Assembly: GCA_040357565.1 (NCBI GenBank) | Contig: JBDODJ010000051.1 | Source of the DNA: Cercozoa sp. M6MM | Lineage: Eukaryota; Protista; Endomyxa: Ascetosporea | DNA: 64,000 bases | Strand: one strand, 5' to 3' | In this document: positions 64-58,700 of the stretch, piece after piece | Layout of the letters: each line of letters begins with the position of its first letter | How positions within the stretch are numbered: position 1 is the first letter of the stretch | Program-made: the position numbers and the translations under genes | Notes under the pieces: generated by a model | What the model was told of the DNA's origin: nothing | The model's database searches: none | The model's input: the letters and a program-made list of their open reading frames with translations, nothing else

Positions 64-199
64 TACTTTGACGTTCTAAATACTGCTTCCCAGGCAATCA
101 ACATGGGACACCTGTTTGAGTTTACGGCAGAGACCACTGTACGCGCCAACTTGTCCTACTTGGTGTGCTGTTGATGGTTGGGATTTAGTTGATTCGAGT

Positions 200-2779
200 G
201 ACGAAAGAAGACGATGAGACCACGATGCTGAAGGATTCCGAGTAATAAAATTGTCCCCTTTGATCTTGGATGTCTGTTGCTTTATTTTGTATTTGAGGTG
301 CTTGTGTAGCGAACCCAGCACTGTGCAAGAGTCTCCCCTCGCAGTTCAGGCCCGTCGGCAGTTCCGCATTCTCGTTTTTACGATTGCTGTACCTTTTGAT
401 TGTTTTTATTTGTTGGATTTTCAGTTTTGCTTTTTTGAGATGTTTGTGCGTGCTATTTAGTTTTCTTTCGCGCTCTTGTTCGCGTTGGCGGGTGTGCTGG
501 CTTCGTCATCGAGTGCGACGAGCGAATCGTATAGCGCTCCCATATACACAAATAAAATTTATGCGCAGATGCAATTACTTCTGCCAACTCATTGGGACGT
601 TTTTAATATCAGCATTGGCGATTTCGATGAGACGACGTATCTTTTGCTCTCGCAGGTAGCTTTTCCTTGTGCTTTTTAGTTTGTGTGGATGTGGTGTGTA
701 ACTGCAGACTCCAACAGCGAAAGCTTCAATCGAGCAGGTGCAGTTCAAGTTCAATATCAAAACGAGAGGCAAAAGAGTGTGTCTCTGGTGTCTGTCTTTT
801 TAGTTGGCGTTGGCTGCGACCTTGGGTGCAAGCATTCACCTCCTCGGTGCTGAGCATGGTAAGGTTTTGATCTCCGGGTTTAACTTGGGATATGTTTCCT
901 TACTTATCGACGTTTGTTTGAACTCTAGGCGGTACGGGTCCGACGAAGGTTAATCGCAATGGTTTCCACGATGCTCTGGGCTACGGACGCCAAGTTACCT
1001 TGTATGCTCTGGCAGTTGCTTGCTGTGTGCTTTCCTGCGTATATCGGTGACTGGTGCGAACAGGAACAACTCGATGCGTGCTGTGGAGCGAACTACGGTG
1101 ATGCAGCAGCTTTTGCGGCGTATCGACGTTGTTGCCGCTGAGAAATTGAGTGTACAGTTTCCTTCTCTGGATATGTTTGTTGTCTTGCTTGAATCGCCTC
1201 GCTGTAACGTTGCAGTTGGACGATGTTCTCGCCAATCTGGAGACGATAAATGAGACGGCCATGCACGTATACCACTTTCGTTTTTTGTCGGGTATGTTTC
1301 TCTATGTTAACGCAGATCTTTGACGAAGCTGACGCGATCGTTGACTATGCTTTCAAAAACGGAGCCGAGGATCCGAATGTAGAATTAAGGTTTAGTGTAT
1401 TGACGTGTTTTGACTGATGTTTGGTCTGAATGGATAATAAAAATTAGAATTGGAACGCCACACGCGGCGCGGAAATGATCGCGCTGCTGACACAGAACTC
1501 GAGTTTTGCCGTCGCTGTCAGTTCCGCTCAGCACTGGCTGGATGATCGCACGTCGCTGGCTGATGTCTTCTTTGCCGAGCAGCGTGACGAGGAGAAGAAA
1601 CGCGCTAACTGTACCGCCTTTTTCCCTTTGACAGCTGCTTGGGGAGTATTCTCTTTTTCTGGGCAGTGGTGCTGTCACTGGCGATCGTTGCTTCCGTGCT
1701 AACGATCGTTGCTGTTACTGTCACTGTTCTGGTAGTTTACGTTCGACCTGTCCTTGTTGGCTCGTTTGAGTACTTTCGCTCAAATGACCAGGGAGCGAAA
1801 CGAAGCGCCGCAACGAGCAGTCTCGAATTGCAGGGCGCTGTTTGGACATTCGATCGTGTTTGTGTGTTTGCTGCGTTCATTTTGTTGTGACTCTGTTGTT
1901 TTTGTTTCTTCATCCATCTCTCAATTTAGTGGAAGACAAGGAGTGTTTGGAAGTGCTGCTTGCGCATGCACGATCAAAACTCGTAACTTTTCATATCTTA
2001 TGTCTATCTTCCAACTAAGTTTAGCTATGTCTTTTGTTTAGTCGGAAGAGTGTGTGCAATACGTCTATGACACCAAGGCGATCAATTTACAGGTAGTCTG
2101 CAGCTTTCTCATTCATGAAGTTACAATCAGAGAAACGGCGATCCCTGTCATCTTAGTCTGCGAGACCAAGGATGAGCGACATTAGCTCTCTCATCGACCT
2201 GTACGTGAGAGAAAACAGCGAGCGCGAAGTGAACATCTCGTCCAGACAGGTGCGTTTCTCCCGTCAGCTGGTTCAATAAATGTCAATTTATGACTGACTT
2301 GACACCACGCACAGAGACGCGCAATCGTGCAAGAGTACGACGAGTGCAAGTCGAAACTGCGCAATGACGATGAAATCTCGGGAGAGCTGCTCGAGGCTCT
2401 GCGTGTCTCGGAAAAAGAGGTTACGAAATTGGTGCAGTCTGCTTTTAGTCTTTGTCGAACTTCGCTGACACTTCTGCTGCAAACAGGTGATGACTAATCT
2501 CTACAGCACTTTTCTGCAAAGCACCGGCTTCCTGGAGGTACTTGCTTCATCGCTTTATTGCTGTGGGATACGCTTTAACTTGTCTGCTGTGTGAAACCAC
2601 ACAGCTTGAAGAAAGAAGAAACGCCGAACTGGCCGAGACGCTTGCCGCTGTACACTGTGCTTTGTTTCCCACTGTTTCACTGTGACTCGCAGTGGTGTTT
2701 GCAGATGGAGGAGCACTCACCAATGTACGCGACGGTGACGGCCGACGGCACCAGTGTCGAGATGCACCAAGCACTATAG
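200..2779 (+). CDS. Single-pass membrane protein with C-terminal RGS domain (multi-exon; 5' end unresolved)
   Basis: Hydrophobic exon AVVLSLAIVASVLTIVAVTVTVLVVYV (~1665-1745), then spliced exons ECLEVLLAHARSKL/SEECVQYVYD, LIDLYVRENSEREVNISSRQ/RRAI and EKEVTKL/VMTNLYSTFLQSTGF matching RGS-box motifs (SEEN, EVNI, ME.DSYPRFL.S); stop TAG 2777-2779. Confidence 0.75.
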
Positions 2780-2891
2780 AAATTGCAACGCACGGCAAAT
2801 GCGTCGAATTAGTCTCACGCTCAGTTGCGCAGTACAACTGAATTACTGAATGAACGAATGGAACACAACGCGTAGCTCACCGGCGCCCCCA

Positions 2892-8389: not shown

Positions 8390-16784
<8,395 letters not shown>

Positions 16785-16884: not shown

Positions 16885-18256
<1,372 letters not shown>

Positions 18257-19092: not shown

Positions 19093-19784
19093 ATGAAATT
19101 GCTTCTCGGGATCTCGCTTCTGGGCACCGCTGCTGCTGCAGGTATCGTTGAGCTTTCGGTTTAGCCGATCCGATGCATGTTTAACAAGGGGCTTGTTGTT
19201 CAGCAGCAGTGCCGGATTTGGCGGATTTGTTCTCACCGCAAGAACTCGCTGGCATGCGGCGTGAGCATGCAAGACTCCAGGCCGAGTTCCAAGTGCAACA
19301 GCAAGCATTCCAGGCTCAAAAGGATAACGCAATTCAAGCCTTGGATGTTAATCAAGCTTGCAAGACAGCGCTAGATTCAGCAATCGTCCCGGGTGACAGC
19401 TTGACAACTACGGTAAATTACAAAAGACCATTACTGGTGCTTACAGTTTATTGTAACATTAACTTGTGGCGTGGCTATAGTTGCAAAACGTGCAAACTGT
19501 CCTCAACAGTCCGCAGTGCACTCGAGGCGTCAACCGTGCTGAGGCAGAAATGTATGGTGCTGCCGTGGTCAATGCCGCCTTCCCGCCGCGTGCGACAGAG
19601 GCACAGGCACTGCCTCGGAGAGGTCTGCAACCTCCTCTCGGTTTTCCTCCTCCCGGTCCTCCTCCTCTCGGTCCTTCTCCTCCCGGTCCTCCTCCTCCCG
19701 GTCCTCCTACTCCCGGTCCTCCTCCTCCCGGTCCTCCTCATCGCCGAGAAGAACCTCCGCAGGTAGTGTCTGCTGTGCTGTGTG

Positions 19785-19838
<54 letters not shown>

Positions 19839-19848
19839 NNNNNNNNNN

Positions 19849-19896
<48 letters not shown>

Positions 19897-21790
19897 GCAC
19901 TTGTTTTTCTGGAACAGGAACTGCTCACACCACCGAGACGTCCACCTCCAGTTCAACCCGTTGCCCCGCGAGTAGAGCGATACCCTGCCCCAACGGTTCC
20001 TTAGTTTAGCCTCTTGCATCTCCTGCCTTTAGTTTGTATCCGGTGTGTGTTGTTCTACAGGCCGTCGAGGCTGAGCCCGAGGAGGAAGCAGTCACTCCTC
20101 TATTTGCCACGGTACGCGAGTTGGAGGTACACACACTCCGGGTCTTTCCTGTGACACATGTCTCTCAATTTGCCTACAGACGGAGGAACCTGCGACACCT
20201 GTACAGGTGACTCCTGAGCCGGAGGTACTTCCGACCTCACTCTCTGTGACTGTACTCCTCTTGAGTTCAGCTGTGTGTATGTGACTCAGAGAGAACGCGA
20301 AGAAATGCGACGACTCTTGGTTCAGAGAGAGCCAGTTCTTACGGAGCAGCAACGCCTTGGAGAGTACCATGAACGCGCCGCCCGAAAATGGAACATCGAC
20401 AGCGACCGAGCTGCCCAAACTGCCAATGCTGGCTTCAATCAGTTGCACGAACTTGCGGAACAACTTGACCATCCAGGTCAAGAATTCCACCAGAAAATCG
20501 ACACGATGATCACAGACTTCACAAAGCGACTGGACGAACTGCGGGAAAAAGTGAGAATGTCCGTGGTGGCAAATACACAACGCATGGTGGACTTTATTAT
20601 CGACCAATGGACGCAAGACCTGCAGCAGTGGCAGAACGACGCTAGAACTGCTCAGGAGGCACTGTACGAAGAGTTGGAACAAGCACTTCAAGCCCAGGTA
20701 ATTTGTATCACAGACTAGACCTTTGTGTCGACATCTCTGAACTCTGTTGAGACAGGAAGAACACAAGTCGGCGAGATTCCCGGTTCCTTGCTACTGTCAC
20801 TTTTCGTCGACCCTGACCCAAGCCGACCCTTCTTTTTTTTTACTCTGTTGGTTCTGTAGGTTGTACGCGACTTGGGACCTGAGTTGGTACACACAGACTC
20901 TGTCACCTTTGTAGGTGCATTCATTTCGTTGTTGACTACAGAGAGAGGGGCCGCCCGCTGGAACCGGCGCCGTCCCAGTAAGTCTCCTCTTTGAAACTGC
21001 CCACCATGAAACATGAAATGAACATGGGATTGCAGTGGGAGCCGACATCGCGTCATGCTCGTGAAACAAGACCAGCAGAATTAGTACTGTCCTTACTTCC
21101 TTCATGTTGTTACTATCACAATGTACCATCACGGTGGCTGCAGGAACGAGAACGTCTCGACCGGGAGAAACTTGAACTCGCAGAGGACATGGCTGCATTC
21201 GATGCTCGCATGCGCACAGAGTTGGAGACACATGCAGCTCGACTCCCTGCGACACCAATTGAACAAGTGACTCCTGAAGCCGCAGTACCCTGGCTACCTG
21301 CCGCGCCTCGAAAACCGGTACCTGCGACCTCCCTCTTTGTGACTGTGTCAGATGCAACAACTCACAACTTAGCCTCAAACAACACAACGTCCTCCCACAC
21401 TCGAAGTGGTACCCATGCTAGTAAGTTTATTCTGTCGTGTATGAAATTGATTGATTGAATGTAGGGAACACCTGAATTCGCACCTCGTGTACTCTCAGTT
21501 TTGCTGAAGGGTGTAATTTTCAAAGAAGAGTGTCTGTTTGTGGGACTCACAGTTGAGTCTGACTCCTTCCACGATCACCACTGTACTCTAACTTACTGTG
21601 GCGTATGTCTTGACCCTACCTGCTGTCTCACAGGAAGGCGAGGTTCCTCCTGCTGCGACTGGAACCCCGACCACAGTGAGTCTTTCTCCATCATTCGTTG
21701 TTGTGTGTTTACACCGCATTGTTTTTTGCAGGCGACTTCGACCCCCGAAAGCTCGCCTGCGTCTTTCCCCGGAGTAACTTGAGAACCATC

Positions 21791-21840
<50 letters not shown>

Positions 21841-21850
21841 NNNNNNNNNN

Positions 21851-21942
<92 letters not shown>

Positions 21943-24900
21943 GCACCAGGCGCCTTCAGCTTTTGAAAGACTGACTGAGAGTCCGTTGCCCTCGGAAGAA
22001 GAAGAGACTTGGAAATATGAGGAAGAAGAGGTACTGCTGAACTCAAAGAACTCGATTCTACCTGACACATTTTAAACTGGGACCGCTCAGTGGCCCGTGG
22101 AGCAAGAAGAAAGAGAACTGGCACGTGCCGAAAAAGATCAGTTGGACCTCACCTTGCGAACCTGCTATGGCGAAGTTGTCGTTGCATACGATAAAGCCAG
22201 AGCGCGCACACAGCGTGCGGTTGAAGGTCTCGCCGGCATGCCGCGTCTACTGCCTGAGGTATAATTTACACTCACTTTGTGGTCAGACTGTACACTTCTC
22301 TTTCTTAGGAAGAAGTTGCGCACGTTGAACAACAACTGCAACAGCTGCAGCAGCAAGTGGAACGAAGCTTTGAAGGTCTCAAACGGGAGCAAGAAGCGCA
22401 GTTATTAGACCTGCTTCGCCAAATTCAGCAAGCTCAAACCCAGGTACGATAGCTTCCTCTAACTTGACCAGTCAAACTGATCTATTTTGCGTCCTCAGGA
22501 TGACACTCAACGATTGCGAGCTTTAGCTGACAACATGTGCCGTGCTGCCGAATTCAAAGTGCATCAGCTGGAAGACAACCTCCGTGCTGCTACAGAAGAC
22601 TTTAGACAAAACTTGCAGCGCCTTATCGAAGCTGCTCGTCAGCGAGAGGTGCCTTTTACTCTCCAAACAAGCCATGGACATTGTATACAATTGAGCTGAC
22701 TGGACAGCTTGCCGAACAAGCTGCACTGCGCCGACAGGTTGAACAGCTCCGACAAAAGCAGCTGCAAGGACCCACTCCCGCCCGAGCCGCCGAAGAACTC
22801 GCTCGTGCCGAAGCAGAACTCGCTGCATTCGATGCAGAACAAGCGCATCGAGCAGCAGAAGCAGAGGCAATTGAAGCAGCAGCCGTCCGCGCGGAGGAAA
22901 TACAACAAGAAATGGCTAAGACCATTGCAACAGAGGCTGAAACACGAGCTGAGCTGGAGCAAGAACAACGTCTTGCGGCTGCAACTTTTGGTCAAATTCA
23001 AGCACAACGCGGCCTTCTCGAACGTGAACAACGAGCGGAACAAGTCCAACGCAAACAGAAGCAGTTGCAGTTCCTGCTGCGACAGGAAGAAGAAAGAAAG
23101 CAAGCCGAAGAAGAACGTGCCGCACGTCTGCGTGGACTGCTACAACCTCCGACTCCTCCAGTCGCACCTCAGGCACCTGAGGCACCTGTACAATTACCAT
23201 TCCTGGGGCTATTTCGGTACTTTTGCACATATAATCTAAACAGGAGCTAGCGCCTACCGGTGCACCTGTCGCTGCATACCCAACACTGGTGCGCGACGTG
23301 TCGGTACAGTCCATCAGTCCTTCGTCTGTCTTTTCTTTAAGCAGCATCGTCAGTCCTGCGTGCATTATAATCAGGTTAAAATGGAAGAAGCAACGACACC
23401 ACGTACTACTGAAGGCCCTGCCGGACCGCCTGCTGTTCCTGTGGTATTGATCCACACACAGGAGATTGTTTTGATACCGTATGTGCGTGTCAGGCCGAAC
23501 CAGTGGTGCCTGCGCCTGTCGCAGAAACACCTGCAGTCCCAGCAACCGGCGTTCCATCACCCGTACTCTTTTTTTTTTTTTGTTGATGAACTTCCAGTTC
23601 AGTCGCCTGTTTGAGTGTGTCTGTGGCTGCAGGAGAAACAAGCTGAGATTGAAGACATCATGCGCCAGCTCGTGGTTAATTTTATCCTTCAACTTTCCAA
23701 AGACGAGCACTTGATGTAGGAACACGTCGCTGCACTGCCTCCCGAGCGGATCATTCACGGTCCCGAGAAGGTTCCCCCGGTCACACCTCCGACATCGAGA
23801 GCTCCTGTAGTATCCCACTTGCTGTGCACAATACCTGTCTCTCTTTCTGTCTCTTACAGTGTGTATGTGTGCCCCGGTGTGTTCTCTGAGCAGTCTCCCA
23901 CAGGGGAGGTACTTTATTCTCTTGTATGCACCCCCAGCAGCTTGTTTATAAACGTGTACTTGAAAAGAGACCCTCACATCGCTTGCCCAAACGACAAGCT
24001 GAAGCTCTGAGAGGACCTGCTGCACAAGATGAACTCCAAGAGCGACTGCGCCACGCTGAACAAGCCGCAACGGCAGTGGGAGAAGCCGAGATTGAAGCCT
24101 TGGTATCTAAATTTTAGATGTTATTTTCTTTATTGTGTGGCGGTCTTTAAATTTACATTTGTCGCATACAATAATATTCAGCTGCTTTATCAAAAACTAC
24201 ATTATTGTATATTCATTACCGTTTTTCGGCAGCAACGACAAGCAGAGCTGGAACAGCATCTGCTTCAGGTCACACTGACTGAATTGGAACGAATCAAGGC
24301 TGCAGCGGCAGCAAAAGAAGTCGAGATTCTGCCACTACTGCAGCAGCTTCCTCAGCAGGTAAGGCGTTTGGTTTCTCGGGCATTCACTACTACCCTGTGT
24401 TTCTGTGTGTTGGCAGTTTCAAGCAGTTGTTCAACAAGAACTGGACAGTCTAATTCGAGAAATCAACCAAGCTGTCGAACAACATCAAACCCAACCACTC
24501 GATCAGTTGCGCACCGAATTTGAACAGTCGCCAGAGCAGTTCGAGGCGACTGTCCAAGAAGCGATGGAACAACTGGCGAATCTCGAGCGACGCTGTGTCC
24601 GAGCACTGGAAGAATTGAAGCAACGGGTTCTTGGCACTTTGGTAAATTCAACCTCTGAACCACAAGCTATACGTTGAACCCACATTCGTTATTCGTTTGC
24701 AGCAAGGCGTTAAAGAACTTCGTGAACGCACTCGAAACCACAAGGCGAGAGTTCTGCAAGAACTCGAAACGGCACTGCAAAGTCACATTGGGGGCATGAA
24801 GGCTCGCCTTACAGAACCGCAGGTCCCTTTCACTTCTTTCTCCACTGCTTGCACTTCCTTCAATTTGAGAGCACTGCGTATCCCGGCATGATGTTTGACT

Positions 24901-25535
24901 TTTTGGCAGACGGGTGCAACTCCCGAGCGGCAGGCAGCACTGGAGGCAATGCAGCAGCAGTTTGGAGAACAGAACACTGCAATGAATCAACGCATTGAAG
25001 AAACACGTGCCATGCTCGAGCAGCGTACTGCGCAGCTGGCTGCCGAAGTACTTTGCCGACTTCACTTTGAAGCTGTTATTATTATTTGTCCGGCAGGATG
25101 AAGCTGCTGAAGTCATCCGACAACTGGAAGAACTGCACACGGAGGCGATGACTTTGATGCGAGCCCAGCACGAAGCACTAATGAAGCTGCTCGAACCTGT
25201 ACCCCGACTCTTGTGTGTGCGTGAGTGTGTGTGTGTGCGTGTGTGTGTGTGCGTGTGTGTGTGTGTGTGCGTGCGTGCGTGTGTGTCACTTGACGACGTG
25301 TCTGCATGGGTAGGAAGTGGAGGTAGAGGAAGAAGAGGAGGAAGAGGAAGAAGAGGAAGGAGAGGAGAAAGAAGAGGAAGGAGAGGAGAAAGAAGAGCCA
25401 GAGGTGCCTCCTCCGGCAGCCCCTCCGGCAGCAGCCCCTCCAGCAGCCACTCCAGCTCGCCGATGGGGCTTCACGGACCTCCCTCGAGCGGCCCTCTCGA
25501 CACTGACGTTTGGCTGGGTGCGACCTCCAGCATAG
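19093..25535 (+). CDS. Large secreted Pro/Thr-rich and coiled-coil protein, ~35 exons including micro-exons
   Basis: Signal peptide MKLLLGISLLGTAAAA; (PPPGP)n tract; Q/E-rich helical blocks; continuous frame can be built through GT-AG introns to ...RAALSTLTFGWVRPPA*. Confidence 0.75.
19780..19894. repeat. Intronic (TG)n microsatellite with 10-N assembly gap (19839-19848)
   Basis: Direct observation. Confidence 0.97.
21792..21936. repeat. Intronic (CA)n microsatellite with 10-N assembly gap (21841-21850)
   Basis: Direct observation. Confidence 0.97.
25212..25286. repeat. Imperfect intronic (TG)n/(TGCG)n microsatellite
   Basis: Direct observation. Confidence 0.95.
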
Positions 25536-27540: not shown

Positions 27541-28175
27541 ATGAAAATACATGTGTTGCTTGCGCTAATGAGCGTCGCGGTGGTGAGAGTAGGCGCTGCT
27601 GACGAAGAGCAGGTGAGAGTAGGCGCTGTCACTCCAGCCGAATCGGACACCGCTCCATTTCGCGCCCCAAGCCCAACGACGGTACAAAATACAGTCTGGC
27701 CTTGATACTTTAAGACCTAACTTGTACTGCCAATACGTATTGTAGTCCTCCGAGGTGGGCACGAGTACTACGTACGTCGGACTGGAAAAGGAAGAGCGTC
27801 CACTGAAATCGGCCCTAAAGCCCATACAAACAGATATGGTACAGCCTGTAGAGTGCTTTCCCGACATACTGTATACTGTAAACCTCTAACTGTATTTCTC
27901 CCACTGGCGTACAACAGCCTGCGGAAGCACGACAGCAGAAGAAGAGCGTTCGCTTCCAGTTGCAGCCAGAGACGGCCGCGTCGCAAACCGCTGAAACTAA
28001 ACCCCGGTCCGAACCAGAGGCGCAAGGCGTCAGCGCGCATACTCCAGCTCAAGCAGTCGAGGAGGCTGAGGAAACTCCGAGTCCCGCGCCGGCGTTGAGT
28101 TGGCGAGAATACGGCCAACGCGCGCTGTCGAGCATAACGTTTGGCTGGGTGCCTCCACCGCGCGCACTAGTGTAG
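27541..28175 (+). CDS. Small secreted disordered protein (~163 aa) with SILK-like and RVxF motifs; exons 27541-27681, 27746-27838, 27918-28175
   Basis: MKIHVLLALMSVAVVRVGA signal peptide; two phase-0 GTAC..AG introns; PLKSALKP, KKSVRF; ends QRALSSITFGWVPPPRALV*. Confidence 0.75.
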
Positions 28176-37395: not shown

Positions 37396-40121
37396 TTAGG
37401 CCTTACTTTGGAGTCGCATCATGTCAAAGTAGCTGTTTTGAAGCAGCGCGACCTCTCCGCGTATTCTCGTCAGCTCGATTTCGTAGTCTTCGCATTTCTT
37501 GCTGTACTCTCGAAGCTCAGCTCGCATACCCTACAGTAAATCCCCCACCAAGGTTAGATAGTTCACCACGCCTGGGCAACAGTATCAGTCTATTAGATGA
37601 TACCTTGTGCTGAGCACGCTTATCGTGCCAAGCTTGCACGTACAGTCGCAGTTGTTCGCGCGCTTCGTGACCAGGTTGCTTTGCGATGACTTTTCGCAGT
37701 TCAATATAGTCGGCTTCCTTGCGTACGAGTCGTTTTTCCGCAGCACGGAAATCGCTGTCGTGACGCACCAGAGCACGTGTGAGCCGACCCGACCTGCGAA
37801 TCAAGTCGTAGCGCTGCTCGTCTTGATCGCGCAGCTTGCGCCATCGATGAACATTGAGGGGACGGTTTAGTTCTTCGCGGAGTCGCTGCACCTTCAATCT
37901 CATACTCGTCACCTGGGTTTGCAAAGAATCACGATGCTCGTTGAGTTTTCGAAACTCGGAGAAGTGAGGATCCATCTGCTCGTATTTGTCGCTCAACTCG
38001 TCTCGCTTGACTTCCAATGCAATCAGTTCGCGCTGCTTCTCGCGAAATTGTGCTTCACCCTTCATGAAGAGCGACTGTTGTAAACGAAGCTTCTCGTAGC
38101 AGTCACCAAGTTCTGAGTCGCGTGCGTTGAGTTGCACCAGGAGAACTCGAATTTCGTTCTCCACGAGTTTTAGCTGTTGTTCTTCGTGAGCGTGTTCAGT
38201 CTGCCCTTCTTTCAAAACGTCGCGCATGCTACTTATGGCATGCGTACGATCTCGTGTCACTTCTTGGGCTTGTCTCATTTTGTCTTTAAGCTCTTGAAGC
38301 CGCTGCTGAAGTGAGTTGATTTCGCCGTTGATTCGCTCGACTGCAAAGTGCTCGCTAATAAAACCAGCGTCCTTTTCGTTCAATTCCTGTTTCGTGAAAG
38401 CTATTTGCTGCTTCAAATGCTTGTGTTCGAGCTCGTATCTCGATTGTGACGCTCTCTGCTGGACCATTTGCTCAAGGTATTGATCCCTGAGAACACAAGG
38501 GACGTTCCACACATATATCCTTCGAGCAAGGTCGGTGTCGGTACCGATCCTTGCGCAGAGCATCGACAAGTTGACTCTGTTGAGAGAGCTGTTTGTTCTT
38601 TTCGTCGATCAAGTGTGTTAGCTTTAATTGATCCGATTCACACAGACGCATGCGTTGCTCGGCTTTGGCGAGGCGGACATCCATGACAGCCTCTTCTTCT
38701 TCCTTCTGAAGAATGTTGTCTCCTTCTTCCTCCAGCGCAGTGGCCAGCTGCTGACACCCTCGTGTGGCATTCCAAAGTTCTCGCTGGAGAGAGCTCTGAA
38801 TATTCTTGCCCATTCGAACGCGTGTTGCTTGAGCTTCAAGTTCGCGTACGGCAACGCTCTGTGCATCTCGTGCAACAGCTTCGTCGCGTATCACTGTGTT
38901 CAACCTTCGTTCCAGCTGTGTCGCCGCAGATTCAACTTCGTGAAGGTCGCTTTGGGCTTGCGAACTTTGTTTTGAGAGTTCCTTTACGGAGACACTCAAG
39001 CGAGAAAGTTCTGCATCCAACTTGCCTGTTGCTCGAACCATGAGACTTAGCGCCTTTCGCTCCACTTCGAGTTCTTTCCTCACCTTTCGTTGTACCGATT
39101 GTCTTGCGGCTTTTTCTTGCTCAAGCTGCTTCACATCTTCACGCGCCGCAGAGAGATTGACACGGAGTTCCGAGTTCTCGAGCTCTAAGCCCTCCTTCTC
39201 TTTCGACACGAGTTGTATTGAGGCGCTGACGTTCGTCTTCTTGTTTTGTATCTCGATGAGCTTGCCACGAAAGTCGACGAACTGTGTTTGGAGACGTTCC
39301 TGAGCTTCGACGGCTTCCGTCCTGTCGCGATTCAACTCGTCGATAGTACGAGCCAATTCTTCGGCCCGAGACTCAAACTTCCGTAGCAGTTGCACATCCT
39401 TTGGGATCACGGACTGAGCTTTTCGCAAGTCTGCCTTGAGCAAAGCTAGGTCGCTGCTTAACTTTGCGGACTCTTCTTCAAGATTTGCCACTGCGTCGGC
39501 CCTCTTTTTAAACAGCACGCGCGCTTCGGTCAACAAGCTACGCTGAGCATCACGGCTGGCAGCTGCCTGCTTTTGCTCTTCTTCAAGAGCTTCGATTTTC
39601 TTACTTCCTTCTCGCTCGAAATCCTCGTGGCATTTTTCATGTTGTGTTTGAAGGTCCACCAACGACTTTCGCAGGTTCGAAATGTTGTCAAGTGTGCCGG
39701 TTATTTCTTCGCTCATCTGAAGTTTCTTGTCCCCAATGTTCTTGCGCTCTTTCTCTGCGTCTGCAAATTCCTCGTTTATGGACGCAAGCATTGCTTTACA
39801 CTCCTCTTTTTGCTTCTGGAGTGATTGTGTCAGATCCAACAGCTCACGGCACTTCGCAACAAAGCGTGACTCCGAGTCGTGCGACTTGCGAAGTGCGTTT
39901 TGAAGCTTCTCCATCTCGCGCACATACAGTCCAAGTCGCTGGGAGGTGCTCGGGTCACGCACTGTGACGACGAAGCGTTCTTCGATTTCGCGTATTCGCA
40001 GTAACTCATCTTCGCCGATCTGCGAGGTCGATACCGAGGTGCCAGTGGCGAAACTCGAACGTGTTCCGGAACTGCTTTCACCCGAAGGGTGCGCGACAGA
40101 GCGCTCGCCCTCTGCTGACAT
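37396..40121 (-). CDS. CFAP58: Cilia- and flagella-associated protein 58-like coiled-coil protein (2 introns; first 38487-38544)
   Basis: LREELNRPLNVHRWRKL and YIELRKVIAKQPGHEAREQLRLY match the CFAP58 C-terminal signature; long coiled coil. Confidence 0.85.
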
Positions 40122-41878: not shown

Positions 41879-44800
41879 ATGCTGCTCATACTCTCGTTGC
41901 TGCTGGTGCATACAGCACAGGCGCAGTCATGCAACTGTGCCGACACGTGTGCAATTCGCACGGACAATGTGATGATCCCGACGCACTCAGCGACGTGCCT
42001 TGTCGATGCTGGTTGTGCTGAAGGCACCGCGCTGCCCAACGGGTCCAGCTGGCGCTTTTGCGGTGTCTAAGCCTCTAAACTTCCTTGAGTTCTGGCATAA
42101 GCCTATTTTTCGCTGGCAGGTCTAAGCGCGGACACTGAGCGTGCCGCGTGTGCCTGCAGTGATTCCTTTAGCGGACCGGCCGATGTATCCGAACGCGGCG
42201 CCTGCAGCACTCATGGTTTTGGCAATGATGAGGTAAACTTACTTCTTAGCTCAAGCCTAGACTAAGCTAAACTTGACAATAAATCAAACGAATTCATAAT
42301 CTTACGACGACAAAGGCCGACTGGTGCTATGTCTGGGCACCCGGGCAGTGCAGCAGCGCGGCTTCGTCCGGTTGGCGAGCAGGTGCCGCCTGGCGCGAGG
42401 TAAATTTAGCTCACTTGAATGACTGTTACATTCTAACAAAGCAGTGATGTTTAGTGTGATCCGATACTGGAGCAACCTCCGGCTCAAGCTCATGACGGCG
42501 GCAACAATGGCAATGCCGACGATCCTGTAGTTTAGACTGCTTTCTGTCGATTATATTCTCATCATATCGAGTCAAGCATTGAATCCTGCCTTTTCCCAGT
42601 GTCGTTGCGTCTCGCAATCGGACCCTGTGGCCAATGGAATTCTCCTACAGCAACGCTTGGGTACAAAGAAAATTGAGATTATATCAGTATCAAAAGATAG
42701 GGTTGGTTTTGGTACGTGCAGGATGCAACTCGCATGCTACGGGCACGCTGCCCTTCTGCTACGTGAAAGGCTCGGCCCAAGAGTGTCCGACTGCTGTCGC
42801 AAGTGCGTGGATTCAAGGTACTCTATTATGGTACCCCTACTTGTGAGATAAGCAAGTTCAATATTACTTTAGGCATTGCATGGCGCAACTGCAATCCTGC
42901 GATCGACAACGGTGGCAGCATCAGTACAACAACGGCAACAACGACAACAACGACAACAACAGCGACAACAACAACTGCTGCTCCCGTCAGTTTACTTTTG
43001 AGTTATTCCCTTGGGAGGGGGTAATACTAAGCGTATACAGACAACACCTCCAACAAACGATGCCTGCACGTGTTCCTCGGAGGCACAACCCTTTAGCAAC
43101 GGAATCGACATTCGTCCGTACCCTTGTTTGACCCCCTGTTTCAAGTATACAACGGAAACACGTATTTGGTAGACGCGTGGGTTGTGCGAGTCACACAACA
43201 GGCGTGCTGCCCTTCTGCTACGTGCAAGGTACGCAGTGTGCCGCTGCTTCTGCCTCTGGGTGGAGACAGGGCACCTTCTGGCGCAACTGCGACCCTGCGG
43301 TGGACAATAATGGCGGCAACAACGGCGGCGGTAATAATGGAGGAGGCAATAATGGAGGAGGCAATAATGGTGGTGGTAGTAATGGAGGTAACTGCGACAC
43401 GCGCTACCGTCGTCAGTGGCGTCGACTGTCGTCGCAGCAACAAATCGAAGTGGTCGACACAATTCGCGACTTCCGACAGCGCGGCGATTGGGCTCGATTC
43501 CAGCGCATCCACGCCTCGCTCAACAACGCACTGCAAGCACACGGCACCTCGCTCTTCCTGCCGTGGCACCGCTGGTTCGTGCACGAGTTCGAAAGCTCAG
43601 TTCGCAACCTCGACTCGCGATACGCTTGCTTCTCCATGCCTTACTGGGACTGGTACACCGTACGACACACAAACAGAGACAATTACTTTCTCAATTCTCA
43701 ATGAACTAATGAACTGCAAATAGGACTCTCGACGCAGGAAGTGAACAGTTCTCGCCGGTAAACTTTAGTTTTTGTTTGCTTTTAGTGCTTTAGTTTCGGC
43801 CAGAATTGACATGTGCGTCCAACTGCAGCTTTTCGCAAGCAGTGCTTTCGGCGGCAATTCATTCGGCGCATGCTCTGTAAACAATGCTGTCAATGAAACG
43901 ACATCTGTAAAGCACATACCATGCACGTACTCTTGATTGTAGACTGCCAGTTGGGCGGCAAGTCGCTGCGTAACACGCAACTTTAACAATGGCGTGCGTT
44001 TCGCCAGTGCCGGCGAGGTGGCCAATGTCATCACGCAGCAGACGCAGTGGCTCACGTTTGCACCTCGAGTCGAGTTGCAGCACAACCTGCCGCACGAGTT
44101 CATTGGTGGCGACATGTCGACTTTGTACCAATACCATCCAGGCTTTATTTCAAATCAATACTGATACAGTGCTTTCAACTGAGTAAACTGAATCCTGCTA
44201 CTTCCAAATTGAGTGAGTAAATTGCTAATTCTCAGTGAATCGGCCAACGACGTTCTGTTCTTCTTGCATCACTCGATGGTGGACATGCTGTTCGCACTGT
44301 GGCAGGTGTGTCACAGCTACGACGGGTTGGGTGGGCCCATTCTACTCTGTTGATTTAGTTAAACTACTACACGGTGTAAAGTAAGTTTACATGTGGTTTT
44401 GTAGAACCGTCGCAACTGACGCAAACGCACTTTGCCGCCTCCTTCAACGGCGGCACTGACGATCGAATCGATCGCGCCATGCCCTTCGCTTCGACCGGTG
44501 GTGAGGCCGGTTTGCTCGAGGTGACTCCGCGAGACATGTGGCGCAACGACCGCGACCCGCTCCGCGTGGTCTACGAAGGCGGCGATCTGCTGCGACATGC
44601 CACCATCCAGCGCATCTGCGGCACGCGAGTGGCCTCCTCGCCCTTCTTTGATGTCGCTTCACTTGGTAACACTGATCAATCTCTTTCAGTACTCACCTTT
44701 AACTGTGATTGTAACTTCCCAGGTGGACAAGTCTCGCGTGGTGAGGCACCCGAAATCGCTTTCTCACTCCGCTCAGTCGCAACTTTGTAAATTATCTCCT

Positions 44801-45280
44801 GCACTTTTTCGCTCTTTCCGTGGGCTTGTGTAAAATCAAACATGTGCACTTTCGGCAGTGAAACGGCGGCTGCGGCTACGTCATCAAGCGCTGAGATGGG
44901 AACGGTTGCTGCCATTCTGGCTCGCATCGACTGCAACGTTTTGGGCTCTGGTACCCTGCCTTTGTTTTCTTGTGAGTGAGTGGGAGGAATTGAAATTGGG
45001 TCCTTGAACAGAAGCTTTGATGTCGCTGAGTGAACATCGTGCTGCACTTATGCACATGACAAAGGAGGTACACAAAATCACTGTACCTTTTTGAGGCTGT
45101 GATATGTACTGTACCTTGCAGGAAATGGACGCGATGCTGACTGAGCACTGTCGAAAAGACTCGACCGAGATGCAGGTACTTGTCTCCGTTTGTCACTTAT
45201 GATACCGTAATAGTCCACTTTAATCAACCCTGGTACTCTTGTAGAGCATCATGCGACGGACAATTGATCTTGTCGAATAA
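41879..45280 (+). CDS. Secreted tyrosinase (type-3 copper) with four N-terminal Cys-rich repeats
   Basis: Signal MLLILSLLLVHTAQA; CuA RFQRIH..QAHGTSLFLPWHRWFV..PYWDW; CuB HNLPHEFIGGDM..SANDVLFFLHHSMVDMLFALWQ; Thr and (NNGGG)n linkers. Confidence 0.92.
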
Positions 45281-49958: not shown

Positions 49959-50379
49959 GTTGCATGCGAAGGTTCGAAACGTTCGGAACGACTGACTCCA
50001 TTCGTCTCGTTTTTCCTTTTGCTGTACCGCACTAAGCCTTCACTTAGTTACGTTAGTTCGTTAGTTGAGTCTGTACGGAACCGACGCAACTCCTACGTCA
50101 GTTCCCAGCGCCACAGCGCAGCTAGGCGAGGGTGGGTCGAAAGTGCATGGCCATCTACCGCCAGCTATGGTAGGCCCGTCCAGCTCCCCTTTGACGTTCC
50201 CCAGACGACGGATTGATTCCGTAGTCGGTGCGTAGCGGGCTGTAGTTTGATAGTAACCTCGAATCAACATACATCACCGGAAATATGTTTCTCAAGGTCC
50301 GTCGCTATGGGCGTCATGATCACACTACAGCACGTCGCCTGAGACTGCATGCATTCCAGCGCGTCTTTAACCTCGTGTC

Positions 50380-53086
50380 CTACGGCAGCAGACTATTGTT
50401 AACGCGTACGCCAGGGTTCTCGGTGTCATCGTCAAGATCGATTTCGAAGTCATTGTCGCTCCTGTCGCCTCGTGCCTCAATGTAACGCCGCGGTTCTTGG
50501 CTGTCTTCGACGTTGTCAAGCGCATCGGCGACGGCTTCGAGCTGAGCATCAGTGAACCCGCCTCCCGAAGCACGTGCCTGTTGCAGACGCAGCATGTGCA
50601 AGGCGGCCTATGGAACTCAATGTGAGTTGACACAGTCGAACGTATGGGAGTACTGGTACATTCACTTGTCGTTGCTCGGTCGAGTTTTTGCGCATCTGAA
50701 CGCACATGTAGACGAGCGCGCAGACCACCACGAGTGCCAGCAGTCCTGTCAACATGCATATGGAAAATAAACACTCCGTTTAATGGGCCGAAGGAAGCTG
50801 CAGCACCGAGAGCACTGCTCAGTCCAGCGATGAGCTTGCTGTCCGTGTTGTTTTTTGGCGCATCTAGGGGGCAAAGTCAGAAGTACTAACAAAGAGGAAA
50901 ACAGGTCTAAATCACCTCGCTCCACAGTATCGTCGTTCACTCCAAATGACGGCAGCAACGTCGATCCGTCTTCAGTTGTCGTAAAAGAACACTCACAGGA
51001 GGGAAAGAAGCTGCAAGTACCCGGCGACACGGCAACGAGTTTCGTGCCTCGCACTCGCGGGTCTACGGTACCGGTACCGATGTGCACCTCGTATTGCATA
51101 CTGAAAAGGGACAAGCGTTATCTCAATTTTACCGTTGCCGAGCGGAGAAGCAACGGTGCCGCTCAAGTCGCGCAACAACAGAGCCACTACATCTGCAGAC
51201 AGAGGCATTTTTTTCTCTTGCTGAGCAGAGAAAAACTGTGCTACCATCGGCGTCGGCGAGAGGCGTGGTCTTGACGAGCAGGTCAAAGTGACTGCCTGCA
51301 ATGACGTCGTTGTTGCCGTTTGAAATATCGGCCACAACGAACAGTTCGCGCGGCAGACCAGCTTCAATAATAAATCAAAGGTACAGGGAGGGGGTAAGGG
51401 AAGGCAAAGATGCCATACCGTCCGCGAAGGCATCCAACACGGTCTGCTGCACCATAAACTTTTCAAACTCGGTCAGAGCCGAGAAACCCGTGCCTTGAGT
51501 TGTGTCTACAAAGGTAATACATCATTTAGTAAAACCCTTAATTTCGATATTTACCACCAGAATTTTCACTGTTCATGAGTGCATCTTCGTTGAGGATCAA
51601 GCGAATGCGAACATCTTGCGTTGTGAAACACGCGCCGGTGCGACAAGTTCCCGGCAGCGTCGTTATCACATCCGTGCACTATGTCCATATATACACTCTG
51701 TGTGTTAAAGTAGACTTCATGAGGTACAAGGTACGGCATCGCCCTCACTGAGTGCCTGGCAAGCATCCCGTACGGAACATGCTGCGCCGCGGTAGCCGTT
51801 CCGACAGTCGCAGCGACCGAAACATGCGCCTCTCTGATAGCAAACACCCTAGGTATCTACAGCATACACTGGACACAGGTACCTCCAAACCGCCGCAAAT
51901 ACGGCCTTGAGAATCACGTGGGCACGAGTCGGAATTGTACTGCACACTGAGTGCTAAGACAAGCCTTTAAAAGGAAGCACAAAGAGAGACGTACCACTTT
52001 AACCGGCAGCGATGTCGGAGGAGACTGCATTCCGAGCACGTCACTCACTCGTACCGTCAGCGAGTAGGCGAAGACGCCGTCTTCTTCCTGTTGTAAGGAA
52101 GGGTACCCTTCAGGCAGAAGAAAAAGAGAAGGAACGTACCGTCTTGCCTGCAGTGTTTGGAACTGCCCGAATGATTAAATCGCCCGTGTCAATGTTGACT
52201 TCCACTGCGGACACAAGAAGCACAAGTAATCGAGGGGATGAAACACGTTCAAAAGAAGGTACGAAAGGCTGCAGCGTCTCCTCCGATCACAGTGTATCGC
52301 ATCTATTGGATTTAGGGTGAACCTACTACGTCAAGGAAGTGGACGAACGACAGAGAGAGAAGGAGATACACTGTCAGAATCGGGGTCGCTCGCGATGATC
52401 TTGGAGACCACCGTGCCCATTGGAAGTGTCGAGTGCAGACGTACTGTTCTCACCTGTACGACTACCCAAACACAGCACATGCTACACTCCTTTGCCCGAT
52501 GATTTGTAGGGGTATACTTGGTGCTTCGTTGGCATCCTGTACGAGAATGTCCTGCTGCAACGTCAGTTTCGGCGTCGAGGAGGAACTGTCTGTCACGTCC
52601 ACTTGCAAGCTCTACCAGTGGGGATGTATCATACTAATATTGGAAGATAAAACAGCGAAGGAAATAAGAAGAGTACCAGTAGGGGTGCAGCCTCGTGGTT
52701 TAGACCTGCAGAGCCCACGCGCACTTCGCCGTTCAACTCGATCACAAGCACTCCCTAAACGGAACGAATCCAATAAAAGGAAGTAACTTTCAATGAACCC
52801 GGACTCTGGTCAGATAGCTCTACCAAAGCAGTTCCGCCACGCACGCGATACACTGCAGTGGCTTCGTCAATTTGCGCTTTGGCCTGTTTCGTCCCAACAT
52901 TGCAAAATTCAGTTGAGTGTTTAGTTTTTATTTTACAGTTCCAGGCATGGATTTGGACAGATCGACGATGAGCGAGCCCGGAGCAGCAAGCTCACTCACC
53001 GATACTTCTGACATTGTCACAAGTGTGGCAGTCACCAGCGACGCTCGCAGCAGCACCACATAGGCAAACGCCGTATGCAGCAGCAT
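50380..53086 (-). CDS. Cadherin-repeat + EGF-like single-pass membrane protein
   Basis: Signal MLLHTAFAYVVLLRASLVTA; VSVSELAAPGSLIV, LNHE, ILVQDANEAP, GTVVSKIIASDPDS, VNIDTGDLII; EGF CPRDSQGRICGG..CFGRCDCRNGYRGAACS; TM LLALVVVCALVYMCV; acidic tail. Confidence 0.75.
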
Positions 53087-55726: not shown

Positions 55727-58700
55727 TCACCAGAATACGAAGAAGGACTTGATTGACGCCAGCATGGACTGACCGATCGAGAGAACGAGACCGGGCGCAA
55801 GTTGCACAAGCAGCACCCCGCCCAGGACGAGTGCCAGCACAACACAAATCACTGTGAGCAGTCCGCCACCGATCAGCTGTCGCAGCATCGAGAACGGGTT
55901 CAGACTCCACTTGAATCGTCCTATGTCAGTCATTTGTGTCACATACGCATTGGAAGCTGTTCGCACCGTACAGTGAGAAACGAACACACCAGGGGGCTTG
56001 GGCAAGTGCGGGTGCTCGTTTGGCGCACTTCGACCGAAGCCTGCCGGTAGCGTGGTTTCTGCCATCAGCACGGGCATGCACTCGAGCGACACTTGCAACT
56101 GCGCAAGCAATCTCTCTGCCTATGCTCGTAAGCAAAGAACAGCTCGGGACCTCAGCACGCGAGTCGTCGTATTTTGGGTGTCGCAAATCCTTCAACCACA
56201 AGCAGCGCTTTGATCCTCTATGAATGTGCAAACAATTCAACCGCACACTTGAGGGTTGAGTCGAAACACACCCGCCGAAAGCAAAAACCGAAGTCTCAGC
56301 GCAGACGAGCGCAACGACATCGTCCTTCTTCCTACAGACAGTAAGAACATACTACCCAATTCACGAATGCTCGTTCTGTGACACTGTAGAATACCGAGCA
56401 ACATGCATGAGTTTACTCAGCGTCAATGTGGTCTCACTAATCGCTCGGTCTGACCCGACCTACCAGAACTTCCGACTGGACACGATTACTTGACAGAAAG
56501 ACCTGAGTGGACACTACCTTTTTGTCCCAAAGTTGAATGCGCAAACGAGGTGGAATACGAGTAGGCAATCCCAGGCGCCATCGCATGCGGTAATTGAACT
56601 GCAAAACCAAAACGAACTGAAGTGAACTGGATTGCTTAAGTCCAAAATCTATAAATAATGTTCATAGTATACTGTAAGTTAGACAAGAGTACAACTCAAC
56701 ATACACTGGCCTTTCCACCCGAGGCACGCCAGTGCACGTCTCTGCCTCATAAAAGTTGAGTCTCTGGTTGAAACACGGCTTCAAAGCAAATAAAAGCGCA
56801 CTTACGTTCGCTGTCGCGCGGGCGAGAACTCCTCGCGCAGCGCGTCCTCGTCAACGTCAAGTTCGCACGTGACGTACCTGCGAACGGCGCACAGTGTTGT
56901 TTTTTAGTTCGTGCAGATGGTAGCCAGAGAGTTAGTTTACAAGTCAGCGCGCCGAGTGAGACTGCCCCGCACCGCCACATCTGATTTACATGTCAAGGTT
57001 GGTGAGGTGTGCAAGAAGAGCCTACACGAGTACTGCAGTATAGTACTTTTGGCCTGCCAAACGACCATGCGGAGTTCGAAATCTTGCGCCTGCGCTGGCG
57101 AGATGTCTGTCGCTGTCACACATACGCACATACACACACACATACAATATATATATATATATATATAAGTAGAGTACGCGGAGTGGCCTGTGCCTCGGCC
57201 GGCGTCATCAATTCAATGAAACACTGCAGACGACCTTGCGCGTGCGAGCTCCGTGGCGCTAACAAAGGACGCTGCTCGAGTGGCTTTGGGCTCAGTTTCC
57301 TGTCGTTTCATGGTACAGGTCCAGAAACCCAAAGAGGTAAAGTCAATCGTACTGCCACTCGGGCGAAAACCACAAATCCTCCAGATCCACGGTGGTCGAG
57401 CCGATCAGTTCGTCTTTTGTTGAAAGCAACCCGCTGAACAAGAGTATCACTTAATAAAGATAAGAGGCAGAACGAAAGGTTAAATGATACCCTCCGACAG
57501 CGTCCATGACAGCGAGGTCGAGTTGTCCGTCACCCGGCAGTTGCAGCGGCAGTTCTAGCACCTCACGGAACTCCGGGTCGGTTGTGTGTCGCAGTCGACG
57601 CTCGCGTGTGCTGATCTCCTTCTTGCCGCACCTCATTACTGTGTGTGAGATTGAAGTTTGTGTTTGGTACTAATTGATACCAAGACAGGGGGCGCATAGT
57701 CAGTTGGTACCAAGGTAGGGATCACACGTGCCACCAGGTCGCCGTGCCGCCAGTCCGCGTGCCCGTATGACGTAGGCGCGCAGTACGACAGTCTCCGGAG
57801 TCAACAGAGGTCCCTGTATCAGTAGCATTCCAGTCACAGAGGAACTGCTTTCCTCCGAAACAGTAGTACCGTGTCGATACTGAGTTCGTCCTCGCGGTGC
57901 CGTGTCATAGCGAAGAGACACTTCATGACACCAAGCTGGCGCCGCTGCTGCTCGCTGAACCTGGCGCGTTCATCGATCTCCTTGCCTACAGTATGAGGAG
58001 GAGACACGCGTGGTTGGTACCACTTGACACGTTGCCAGTCGAAGGAAGAATCGCTACCAGCACTGCCGGTCAGCAGAGCGGCCGACAGGAAGGGCGGCGG
58101 CGGCAGCACCTCGGACAGCGCCGCCTCCAGGACGCTGCGGCCGCGCATCCACTGCTCATCCTCTTCCTCTTCCTCCTCTTCCTCGTGATCAGAGTGGTCA
58201 CTCGAGTACTCGCCACTAATGCCACTCAAGTGGTCACTTGACTGGTCACTCGTTGATACATCGGTCATTGCGTCAATATCGATCACGGTGGCCTCCTTGC
58301 TCTCCTCTGTACAAATACACACAGATTATGGTTTTACCACCTGGCTACAAGGCCGCAGTAGTACCTGTACTTGAGGTGTACGTGTCGAAAGTGAGCGTCC
58401 AATCTGACGATCGAAAAGACTCGATTTCTGCAAACCACATTCCCTTAAGTAGATACAAAAGCACAAACGTCCAAACGTACCAGAGGAGGAGACGAAGGAC
58501 ATATCGCCGCGTGCACTGGCGCCTTCGAGAACGTCTGCGCGTTCGCGCCGACGCAGCTCGGCCACGGCGCTGTCGACGACGGCTTCCTCGCCGCTCTCGT
58601 GACTGCGCGATTCGATCTGGGGGGGGGGGGGTGGGGGATAGTGGGTGGCGGTAAATTAACAGCTGAGTTACATCCTCGCGTTCCTCAGGCGTTTCTTCGT

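What the first reader, a model, noticed from the sequence alone, without database searches (positions are those of the whole stretch)
19413..25313. Micro-exon gene architecture: ~33 consecutive phase-0 introns with symmetric 15-90 nt exons
Seen: after the phase-1 intron following the signal peptide, every intron I could place is phase 0. Micro-exons: 20061-20111 (51 nt), 20180-20224 (45), 20756-20782 (27), 20860-20886 (27), 20942-20977 (36), 21036-21083 (48), 21373-21408 (36), 21465-21488 (24), 21553-21582 (30), 21634-21675 (42), 21732-21773 (42), 23244-23303 (60), 23633-23674 (42), 23894-23908 (15). All are multiples of 3 and most encode P/T/E-rich peptides. Neighbours (TTLL1, CFAP58, VMA16) have mixed phases. 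Known analogy: Schistosoma micro-exon genes diversify secreted proteins by skipping symmetric exons. Inference: combinatorial isoform generation in a protist secreted protein.
Basis: partly seen in the sequence, partly recalled or inferred. Interest (0 to 1): 0.8.

Follow-up and report, generated by a model that had tools for sequence, protein, structure and literature searches.

The report
Amoeba gene of all-symmetric exon modules
A marine amoeba has a large gene for a predicted secreted protein in which 33 introns in a row fall between codons, so every internal piece could be copied or dropped without breaking the frame; it likely grew by copying exon-plus-intron units, and the worm-style exon skipping that was proposed is untested.

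Summary
The phase-0 run is real. My 35-exon model (19093-25535, 1343 aa, predicted signal peptide) has one phase-1 intron, then 33 phase-0 introns. NCBI's model for Cercozoa sp. M6MM (now Lemnamoeba sinaloensis, Rhizaria) has 19 of these junctions letter for letter. Neighbouring genes have 47% phase 0 (106 of 224), so chance is about 2e-11; a proto-splice null predicts 34%. 'Micro-exon gene' overstates it: median exon 78 nt against 68.5 in neighbours, exons of 36 nt or less make 4.8% of the coding sequence, introns are about 60 nt, and splice sites are not weak. Small exons encode Pro/Thr spacers, large ones predicted helices. Evidence favours modular growth at DNA level: exon 6 plus intron 6 is homologous to the end of exon 12 plus intron 12; a paralog has the same signal peptide, two copies of the exon-7 three-helix module and no exon 2; an adjacent three-exon, phase-0 gene shares the C-terminal motif. 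Skipping is neither shown nor excluded, as no RNA could be read. The 3' third may be a separate gene. This scan noted similar symmetric-exon arrays before in two other genomes.

The parts
19093..25535 (+). Whole gene model: 35 exons, 4032 nt CDS, 1343 aa, acidic (pI 4.8), no hydrophobic segment after the N-terminus
19093..19141 (+). Exon 1: predicted signal peptide (judged by eye and by hydropathy; no SignalP run), followed by the only phase-1 intron (19142-19203)
   Evidence: 14 of 15 residues identical to the N-terminus of paralog P0002
19204..19412 (+). Exon 2 (phase 1-0), Gln/Ala-rich; no counterpart found in paralog P0002
   Evidence: no relative among proteins of 122-2000 aa
19481..20224 (+). 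Exons 3-6 (19481-19762, 19918-19995, 20061-20111, 20180-20224): Pro-rich spacer with 15-nt GPP-type repeats in exon 3; intron 3 holds a TG repeat and an assembly gap
   Evidence: exon 4 aligns to P0002 (z 4.4); not in the NCBI model
20180..20253 (+). Exon 6 plus start of intron 6: homologous to the end of exon 12 plus start of intron 12 (about 21245-21346)
   Evidence: 26 of 30 nt across the donor; top of 630 intron pairs and top of 595 exon-peptide pairs
20290..20697 (+). Exon 7 (408 nt): one predicted three-helix bundle; two tandem copies of it in paralog P0002
   Evidence: pLDDT 88.8, pTM 0.74; 53% and 49% identity to P0002
20756..21083 (+). Small-exon cluster 1: exons 8-11 (27, 27, 36, 48 nt), predicted mostly disordered linker
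   Evidence: identical to NCBI model; pLDDT mostly under 50
21144..21317 (+). Exon 12: predicted helix plus Pro-rich tail
21373..22030 (+). Small-exon cluster 2: exons 13-18 (36, 24, 30, 42, 42, 81 nt), Pro/Thr/Ser-rich predicted disordered spacer; intron 17 holds a CA repeat and a gap
   Evidence: identical to NCBI model; my parser offers other frames for exons 16-17
22091..23187 (+). Exons 19-22 (168, 135, 150, 480 nt): long predicted helices
23244..23674 (+). Exons 23-26 (60, 69, 69, 42 nt): Pro-rich spacer and a short helix
23675..23719 (+). Intron 26, 45 nt, the weakest link: the NCBI model reads into it and stops at its last codon
   Evidence: posterior 0.78-0.86; shortest background intron 46 nt
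23720..23908 (+). Exons 27 (87 nt) and 28 (15 nt, doubtful); the end of exon 27 resembles the end of exon 22 across the donor
23968..25198 (+). Exons 29-34 (102-225 nt): Glu/Gln/Ala/Leu-rich, likely helical module, also present in at least two other contigs of run X1
   Evidence: alignments start or stop at the splice sites of exons 30, 31 and 34; composition; not folded
25314..25535 (+). Exon 35: poly-Glu, Pro/Ala tract and a C-terminal Trp-bearing motif shared with the small neighbour
   Evidence: (76% over 38 nt)
27541..28175 (+). Small family member: three exons (27541-27681, 27746-27838, 27918-28175), both introns phase 0, hydrophobic N-terminus, same C-terminal motif
   Evidence: NCBI protein P0003 (MHM6MM_002423) matches all three exons but starts at the second Met

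Best explanation
This gene for a predicted secreted protein has 33 consecutive phase-0 introns, most likely because it was built by copying, deleting and reshuffling whole exon-plus-intron units at the DNA level from phase-0 founders. Steps: (1) shown: uniform phase, one exon-plus-intron duplicate inside the gene, and paralogs that share exon-sized modules in different number and combination; (2) inferred: unequal crossing-over inside introns changes module number without frameshift, so the family varies the length of its Pro/Thr spacers and the count of its helical bundles; (3) inferred: the gene is young or purged of out-of-phase introns, as none is seen after intron 1; (4) predicted: the product is an acidic rod of helical bundles and disordered spacers with a conserved C-terminal motif, likely an extracellular coat, adhesive or scaffold protein (about 35% for that function); (5) inferred: splicing is mostly constitutive, with skipping as tolerated noise.
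For: Exon 6/intron 6 matches exon 12/intron 12. The intron pair alone is not beyond background (2 of 3237 neighbour pairs score as high), but the same pair is also the top exon-peptide pair, collinear across the donor. Weaker pairs: ends of exons 22/27, exons 10/16, starts of 20/34 and 26/30. Paralog P0002 has the exon-1 and exon-4 equivalents, no exon-2 match, and two copies of the exon-7 module, both ending at the residue where exon 7 ends. Exon 7 folds alone as a bundle. At least two other contigs carry the exon 30-34 module, with similarity ending at splice sites. The adjacent gene shares the last motif and is also phase 0. Small exons map to low-confidence coil, large ones to helices. Runs of symmetric exons in disordered proteins arise by internal duplication in humans (PMC3632108, abstract and section 16).
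Against: Only one of 630 intron pairs and a few exon pairs show homology, so most exons have no traceable duplicate. The paralog's DNA was not read: its exon borders are inferred from protein and it is a partial model. The start of its second repeat aligns 12 residues inside exon 7. Intron density (8.4 per kb) is near the neighbours' (9.2 per kb), so later intron gain should have broken the run unless the gene is young or under selection, which this account has to assume. The function is not tested.
Confidence: 0.55

Rival explanations
1. MEG-like variation: selection keeps every intron at phase 0 because the small spacer exons are skipped in combinations, giving a pool of secreted isoforms.
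For: Every exon from 3 to 34 is skippable in frame. Exons of 36 nt or less are in excess (7 of 33 against 10 of 238, p 0.002). No out-of-phase intron despite high intron density. Exon 31 differs from a paralog contig at 25 replacement and 6 silent sites, pN/pS 1.2 (classified by hand), which fits fast evolution. In the rhizarian Bigelowiella natans skipping goes with short exons and short introns (PMC6142364, passages). The strain came from fish gills (PMC11069148, section 13).
Against: Splice sites of small exons are not weak and skips need introns of 144 nt or more. The public model includes all 18 exons between 7 and 26. Skipping does not explain phase 0 around the 120-480 nt helical exons as simply. 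Frame-preserving skipping is mostly an animal trait and was reported absent in B. natans (PMC6142364, passages). pN/pS does not differ from 1 (p 0.81), so relaxation fits too.
Confidence: 0.25
2. Error tolerance: in a highly expressed secreted gene with many short exons, introns that would shift the frame on noisy skipping are purged, with no use made of the isoforms.
For: 3n exons are enriched in long, highly expressed genes (PMC6142364, passage). Neighbour introns in Glu/Gln/Ala/Pro/Arg/Thr-rich context are 57% phase 0 (44 of 77), and one neighbour has 15 of 21.
Against: At 57% a run of 33 is expected 5e-4 times per genome. PI3K (54 introns) and the 49-intron neighbour show no such purge. 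Expression was not measured.
Confidence: 0.12
3. Sequence-context bias, chance, or an artefact of choosing splice sites that keep one frame.
For: 14 of 33 junctions lack an annotated match; exons 16-17 and 28 have other parses; background phases come from my own self-trained parser; the NCBI model may be ab initio at this locus.
Against: The proto-splice null gives 34% phase 0 here and favours phase 1. A phase-blind parser and the NCBI model agree on phase 0. The 19 annotated junctions alone give p 7e-7, about 0.04 expected runs per genome.
Confidence: 0.04
4. The locus is two genes, or one gene with a short form, split at intron 26; the phase-0 runs would then be 24 and up to 8 long. This concerns the structure and is compatible with the best explanation.
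For: The NCBI model stops inside the 45-nt intron 26, shorter than all 215 background introns. No annotated protein holding exon 35 was found. An in-frame ATG lies at 23926.
Against: Posterior for splicing is 0.78-0.86, plus a 48-nt alternative donor. Exon 27 continues in frame and resembles the end of exon 22. No signal peptide or intergenic gap precedes exon 29. The NCBI model is also cut at its 5' end, judged by the paralog's N-terminus.
Confidence: 0.2

Closest known systems
Schistosoma micro-exon genes (MEGs)
   Same: Signal peptide, runs of symmetric short exons, lineage-specific family, signs of fast evolution, organism found on an animal host.
   Different: MEG exons are 6-81 nt, mostly 15 nt, with introns of 0.1-5 kb and proteins up to 189 aa (10.1101/2023.06.21.545858, passages). 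Here the median exon is 78 nt, introns are about 60 nt, the protein is 1343 aa, and exons of 81 nt or less give 20% of the CDS. Skipping is shown for MEGs and untested here.
Vertebrate SCPP genes (caseins, enamel and dentin matrix proteins)
   Same: Secreted, acidic or Pro/Gln-rich, fast-diverging family defined by gene structure with mostly phase-0 introns (PMC9122587, passages). Growth by exon duplication and skipping of small casein exons is recalled, not read.
   Different: No homology or synteny was found or is expected. The intron after the signal peptide is phase 1 here. Large predicted helical bundles alternate with the spacers. Fam20C-type phosphorylation was not examined.
Disordered proteins built from successive symmetric exons by internal duplication (PMC3632108); collagen genes (recalled)
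   Same: Successive same-phase exons, disorder in the small ones, traces of internal duplication.
   Different: Here the phase also holds across folded-looking, non-repetitive helical exons, in a short-intron protist genome, and most exons have lost detectable similarity to one another.
Exchangeable apolipoprotein-like and spectrin-like helical bundles
   Same: Exon 7 is a predicted three-helix bundle that is tandemly repeated in the paralog; weak Pfam Apolipoprotein scores (E 0.005 and 0.004, about 17 bits against a cut-off of 90).
   Different: No Foldseek match at E 0.001 or better; best Z 12 with unrelated bundles tied; Atlas score 0.78. A common arrangement only.

Membership tests
Schistosoma MEG | N-terminal signal peptide | tested here: met
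   Hydrophobic 16-residue exon 1, the only hydropathy peak, conserved in P0002; no dedicated predictor was run
Schistosoma MEG | Internal exons symmetric (3n, same phase) | tested here: met
   32 of 33 internal exons are 0-0
Schistosoma MEG | Most of the coding region made of very small exons | tested here: not met
   Exons of 36 nt or less 4.8%, 51 or less 11.5%, 81 or less 20.4% of the CDS; size distribution like neighbours, p 0.96
Schistosoma MEG | Long flanking introns (0.1-5 kb) | tested here: not met
   Median 60 nt, range 45-176, two with assembly gaps
Schistosoma MEG | Isoform pools by exon skipping | not testable with these tools
   No RNA holder listed
Schistosoma MEG | Sequence homology, platyhelminth distribution | tested here: not met
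   Only M6MM proteins were hit; the organism is a rhizarian
SCPP | Secreted, acidic or P/Q-rich, phase-0 introns | tested here: met
   pI 4.8; E 194, P 137, Q 126 of 1343
SCPP | Descent from SPARC/SPARCL1 and cluster synteny | tested here: not met
   No Pfam family at E 0.01 for P0001 or P0003; no non-M6MM hit; neighbours are actin, PI3K, TTL-family and others
SCPP | SxE phosphorylation and calcium binding | not tested
   Not examined
Apolipoprotein or spectrin repeat | Profile or fold match above noise | tested here: inconclusive

The most novel reading that the evidence does not exclude
A rhizarian amoeba from fish gills has independently evolved a family of fast-evolving secreted proteins whose spacer length and helical-module count are varied both by exon shuffling between paralogs and by combinatorial in-frame skipping, which would be MEG-like protein variation under 60-nt introns, where such skipping is not expected.
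Probability: 0.2. Interest if true: 0.75.

Novelty: new variant of a known kind. Interest (0 to 1): 0.42.

Why it matters
Uniform-phase modular genes are known mainly from animals. This is a clear case in Rhizaria, in a genome with 13 introns per gene and no known source for them (PMC13746701, passages). It gives a compact test of whether frame-preserving skipping can work with 60-nt introns, using RNA that is already published. It also shows exon-plus-intron duplication as one local source of introns in this genome. The public models of this gene and its small neighbour lack their predicted signal peptides, so a secretome count built on them would miss both.

Tried and rejected
No whole genome is held for this window, so the background is the 64-kb window only. 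The run search listed no RNA holder, which is no evidence on expression. Runs X2 and X3 laid nothing on 19900-21790. Exon 2 found no relative among 36 candidates of 122-2000 aa. The C-terminal profile found only P0003 among 7995 candidates scored. P0001 against 1.84 billion representatives gave itself and P0002 only. Pfam, solved structures by sequence, Foldseek, VIA-align and two Atlas searches (best 0.78 and 0.87) named no family. The full-length fold has pTM 0.37 and was used only for helix against coil. Rejected: proto-splice bias; composition bias; introns formed from in-frame coding sequence (only 6 of 34 are 3n, two of the 34 with gap-filled lengths); weak splice sites at small exons. 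The locus tags were not in the four text supplements of PMC11069148; the supplements of PMC13746701 were not seen and may hold a better model. Paper searches: Rhizaria + micro-exon + exon skipping gave 0 papers; searches listed none on this gene. Most subscription papers are outside the library.
Full report
Observation. The 14 listed exons are at the stated places with canonical borders. My full model has 35 exons: 19093-19141, 19204-19412, 19481-19762, 19918-19995, 20061-20111, 20180-20224, 20290-20697, 20756-20782, 20860-20886, 20942-20977, 21036-21083, 21144-21317, 21373-21408, 21465-21488, 21553-21582, 21634-21675, 21732-21773, 21950-22030, 22091-22258, 22309-22443, 22499-22648, 22708-23187, 23244-23303, 23375-23443, 23494-23562, 23633-23674, 23720-23806, 23894-23908, 23968-24102, 24233-24358, 24417-24641, 24703-24822, 24910-25047, 25097-25198, 25314-25535. 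It gives 1343 residues with no internal stop, one phase-1 intron and 33 phase-0 introns, all GT-AG.

Organism and independent model. Exon 7 hits one protein, P0001, named MHM6MM_002419 of Cercozoa sp. M6MM, at 100% identity. That strain is now Lemnamoeba sinaloensis (Apofilosa, Rhizaria), with 13 introns per gene, mean intron 82 bp and abundant AC:GT repeats (PMC13746701: abstract, passages, sections 11 and 34 read). It was isolated from fish gills, and its annotation used funannotate with RNA-trained predictors (PMC11069148: abstract, passages, sections 13 and 15 read). P0001 reproduces exons 7-26 exactly, 19 of 19 junctions, begins at an internal Met in exon 7 and reads into intron 26 to a stop. 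Whether reads cover this particular model is unknown. Exons 1-6 and 27-35 have no annotated match.

Chance. I wrote a gene parser with no phase prior and self-trained it on 15 neighbour regions, seeded in the first round with exons 7-26, actin and VMA16, the target then being dropped. Eleven of 33 neighbour exons scanned from these models hit the expected Pfam families in the predicted frame (TTL, PI3K, CFAP58, tyrosinase, EGF, C2), as did one actin exon; one CFAP58 exon hit only generic coiled-coil families and 21 hit nothing. Background phases are 106:61:57 for 224 introns (38 low-posterior introns dropped; all 262 give 120:77:65). A run of 33 has p 2e-11 (2e-9 at the upper 95% bound), and the longest neighbour run is 7. 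Trained on neighbours only, the parser of 30 or 32 of 35 target introns phase 0. A proto-splice null predicts 34% phase 0 for this sequence. Introns in similar residue context are 57% phase 0, still 5e-4 expected runs per genome. The run is real and needs a cause.

Are they micro-exons? Only in part. Internal exons have median 78 nt against 68.5 in 238 neighbour exons (p 0.96); 7 of 33 are 36 nt or less against 10 of 238 (p 0.002). These 7 make 4.8% of the CDS. MEGs have 6-81 nt exons, mostly 15 nt, introns of 0.1-5 kb and proteins up to 189 aa (10.1101/2023.06.21.545858, passages), and most of their coding region is such exons (PMC4350168, passages). This gene is not a MEG by those criteria.

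Protein. The only hydrophobic stretch is the N-terminal one; mass 149 kDa, pI 4.8, no N-glycosylation motif. In the model of P0001 the small-exon clusters are mostly low-confidence coil and the large exons long helices. Exon 7 alone folds as a three-helix bundle with pLDDT 88.8, but fold searches give only generic bundles. No family was named. An extracellular scaffold, coat or adhesive role is my inference from this anatomy, about 35%.

Family and duplication. P0002 (MHM6MM_002419's only relative among 1.84 billion representatives; MHM6MM_006340, partial) shares the signal peptide (14 of 15) and an exon-4-like stretch, shows no exon-2 match, and has two tandem copies of the exon-7 module at 53% and 49% identity, each ending where exon 7 ends. 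Its DNA was not read. Contigs of run X1, which may be the source of this DNA, include two other sequences matching exons 30-34, with similarity starting or ending at splice sites (24229, 24404, 24645, 25092) and not extending through the introns; I read them as paralogs. One differs from exon 31 at 31 listed sites, 25 replacement and 6 silent by hand count, with no stop or gap. With 142 and 41 sites this is pN/pS 1.2, not different from 1 (p 0.81) but above 0.3 (p 6e-4). That copy could be relaxed or dead. Inside the gene, exon 6 and the start of intron 6 match the end of exon 12 and the start of intron 12 (26 of 30 nt). This is the best of 630 intron pairs, a score reached by 2 of 3237 neighbour pairs (the repeat-rich C2 gene left out), so not significant alone. 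It is also the best of 595 exon-peptide pairs. No other intron pair stands out. A three-exon gene at 27541-28175 has two phase-0 introns and the same C-terminal motif, and its exons match NCBI's MHM6MM_002423.

Skipping. Nothing here tests it directly. Against it: normal splice-site scores at small exons, genome-typical intron lengths, and skips that need at least 144 nt when 8 of 215 background introns reach 120 nt. Across 65 eukaryotes skipping goes with weak sites and long flanking introns, and frame-preserving enrichment is mostly animal; yet in the rhizarian B. natans skipping goes with short introns (PMC6142364, passages), so the architecture does not forbid it. For it: the excess of tiny exons, the lack of any out-of-phase intron at near-normal intron density (8.4 against 9.2 per kb), and the fast-evolving paralog exon.

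Verdict. Real and far beyond chance. Best read as a lineage-specific modular family of predicted secreted proteins grown by duplication and reshuffling of 0-0 exons (0.55), as described for disordered human proteins (PMC3632108, abstract and section 16) and resembling SCPP gene structure (PMC9122587, passages). MEG-like skipping is a live rival (0.25). My searches found no paper on such a gene in Rhizaria. The scan has noted similar arrays in a fungus and in another protist, which I did not check. Interest 0.42; 0.75 if skipping is shown.

Noticed in passing
window 27541-28175 (+): Small gene with a hydrophobic N-terminus and two phase-0 introns that shares the C-terminal motif of the large gene; NCBI's model starts at the second Met and loses most of the likely signal peptide.
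   Followed up: partly
window 41879-45280 (+): Predicted secreted tyrosinase-domain gene (Pfam PF00264) with N-terminal Cys/Trp-rich repeats, a Thr-rich linker and a Gly/Asn-rich linker; introns of mixed phase (8/7/4), so a signal peptide alone does not bring phase 0.
   Followed up: partly
window 37396-40121 (-): CFAP58-like gene has only 2 introns in 865 codons (exons of 1577 and 883 nt) in a window averaging 9 introns per kb. With the TTL-family gene it hints at flagellar genes in an organism described as a lobose amoeba.
   Followed up: no
window 80-2875 (+): 5'-partial membrane protein gene with 15 of 21 predicted introns in phase 0 and a run of 7; its C-terminal part looks RGS-like by eye (recalled; no Pfam hit for the two exons scanned).
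   Followed up: no
window 16885-18255 (+): Actin gene with three phase-0 introns and strongly C/G-ending codons, directly upstream of the target gene.
   Followed up: partly
window 50325-53086 (-): Predicted signal-peptide, cadherin-like (by eye, recalled), EGF (PF23106) and transmembrane protein; 9 phase-0, 10 phase-1 and no phase-2 introns.
   Followed up: no
window 56802-64000 (-): Multi-C2 (ferlin-like, label recalled) gene whose longer introns carry short G-rich repeats on the + strand resembling the TAA[G]n motif reported for this genome; similar repeats occur near 15610-15730 in a PI3K intron.
   Followed up: no
whole window: The commonest donor is GTAC (95 of 215 neighbour introns, 16 of 34 in the target), ahead of GTAA.
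   Followed up: no
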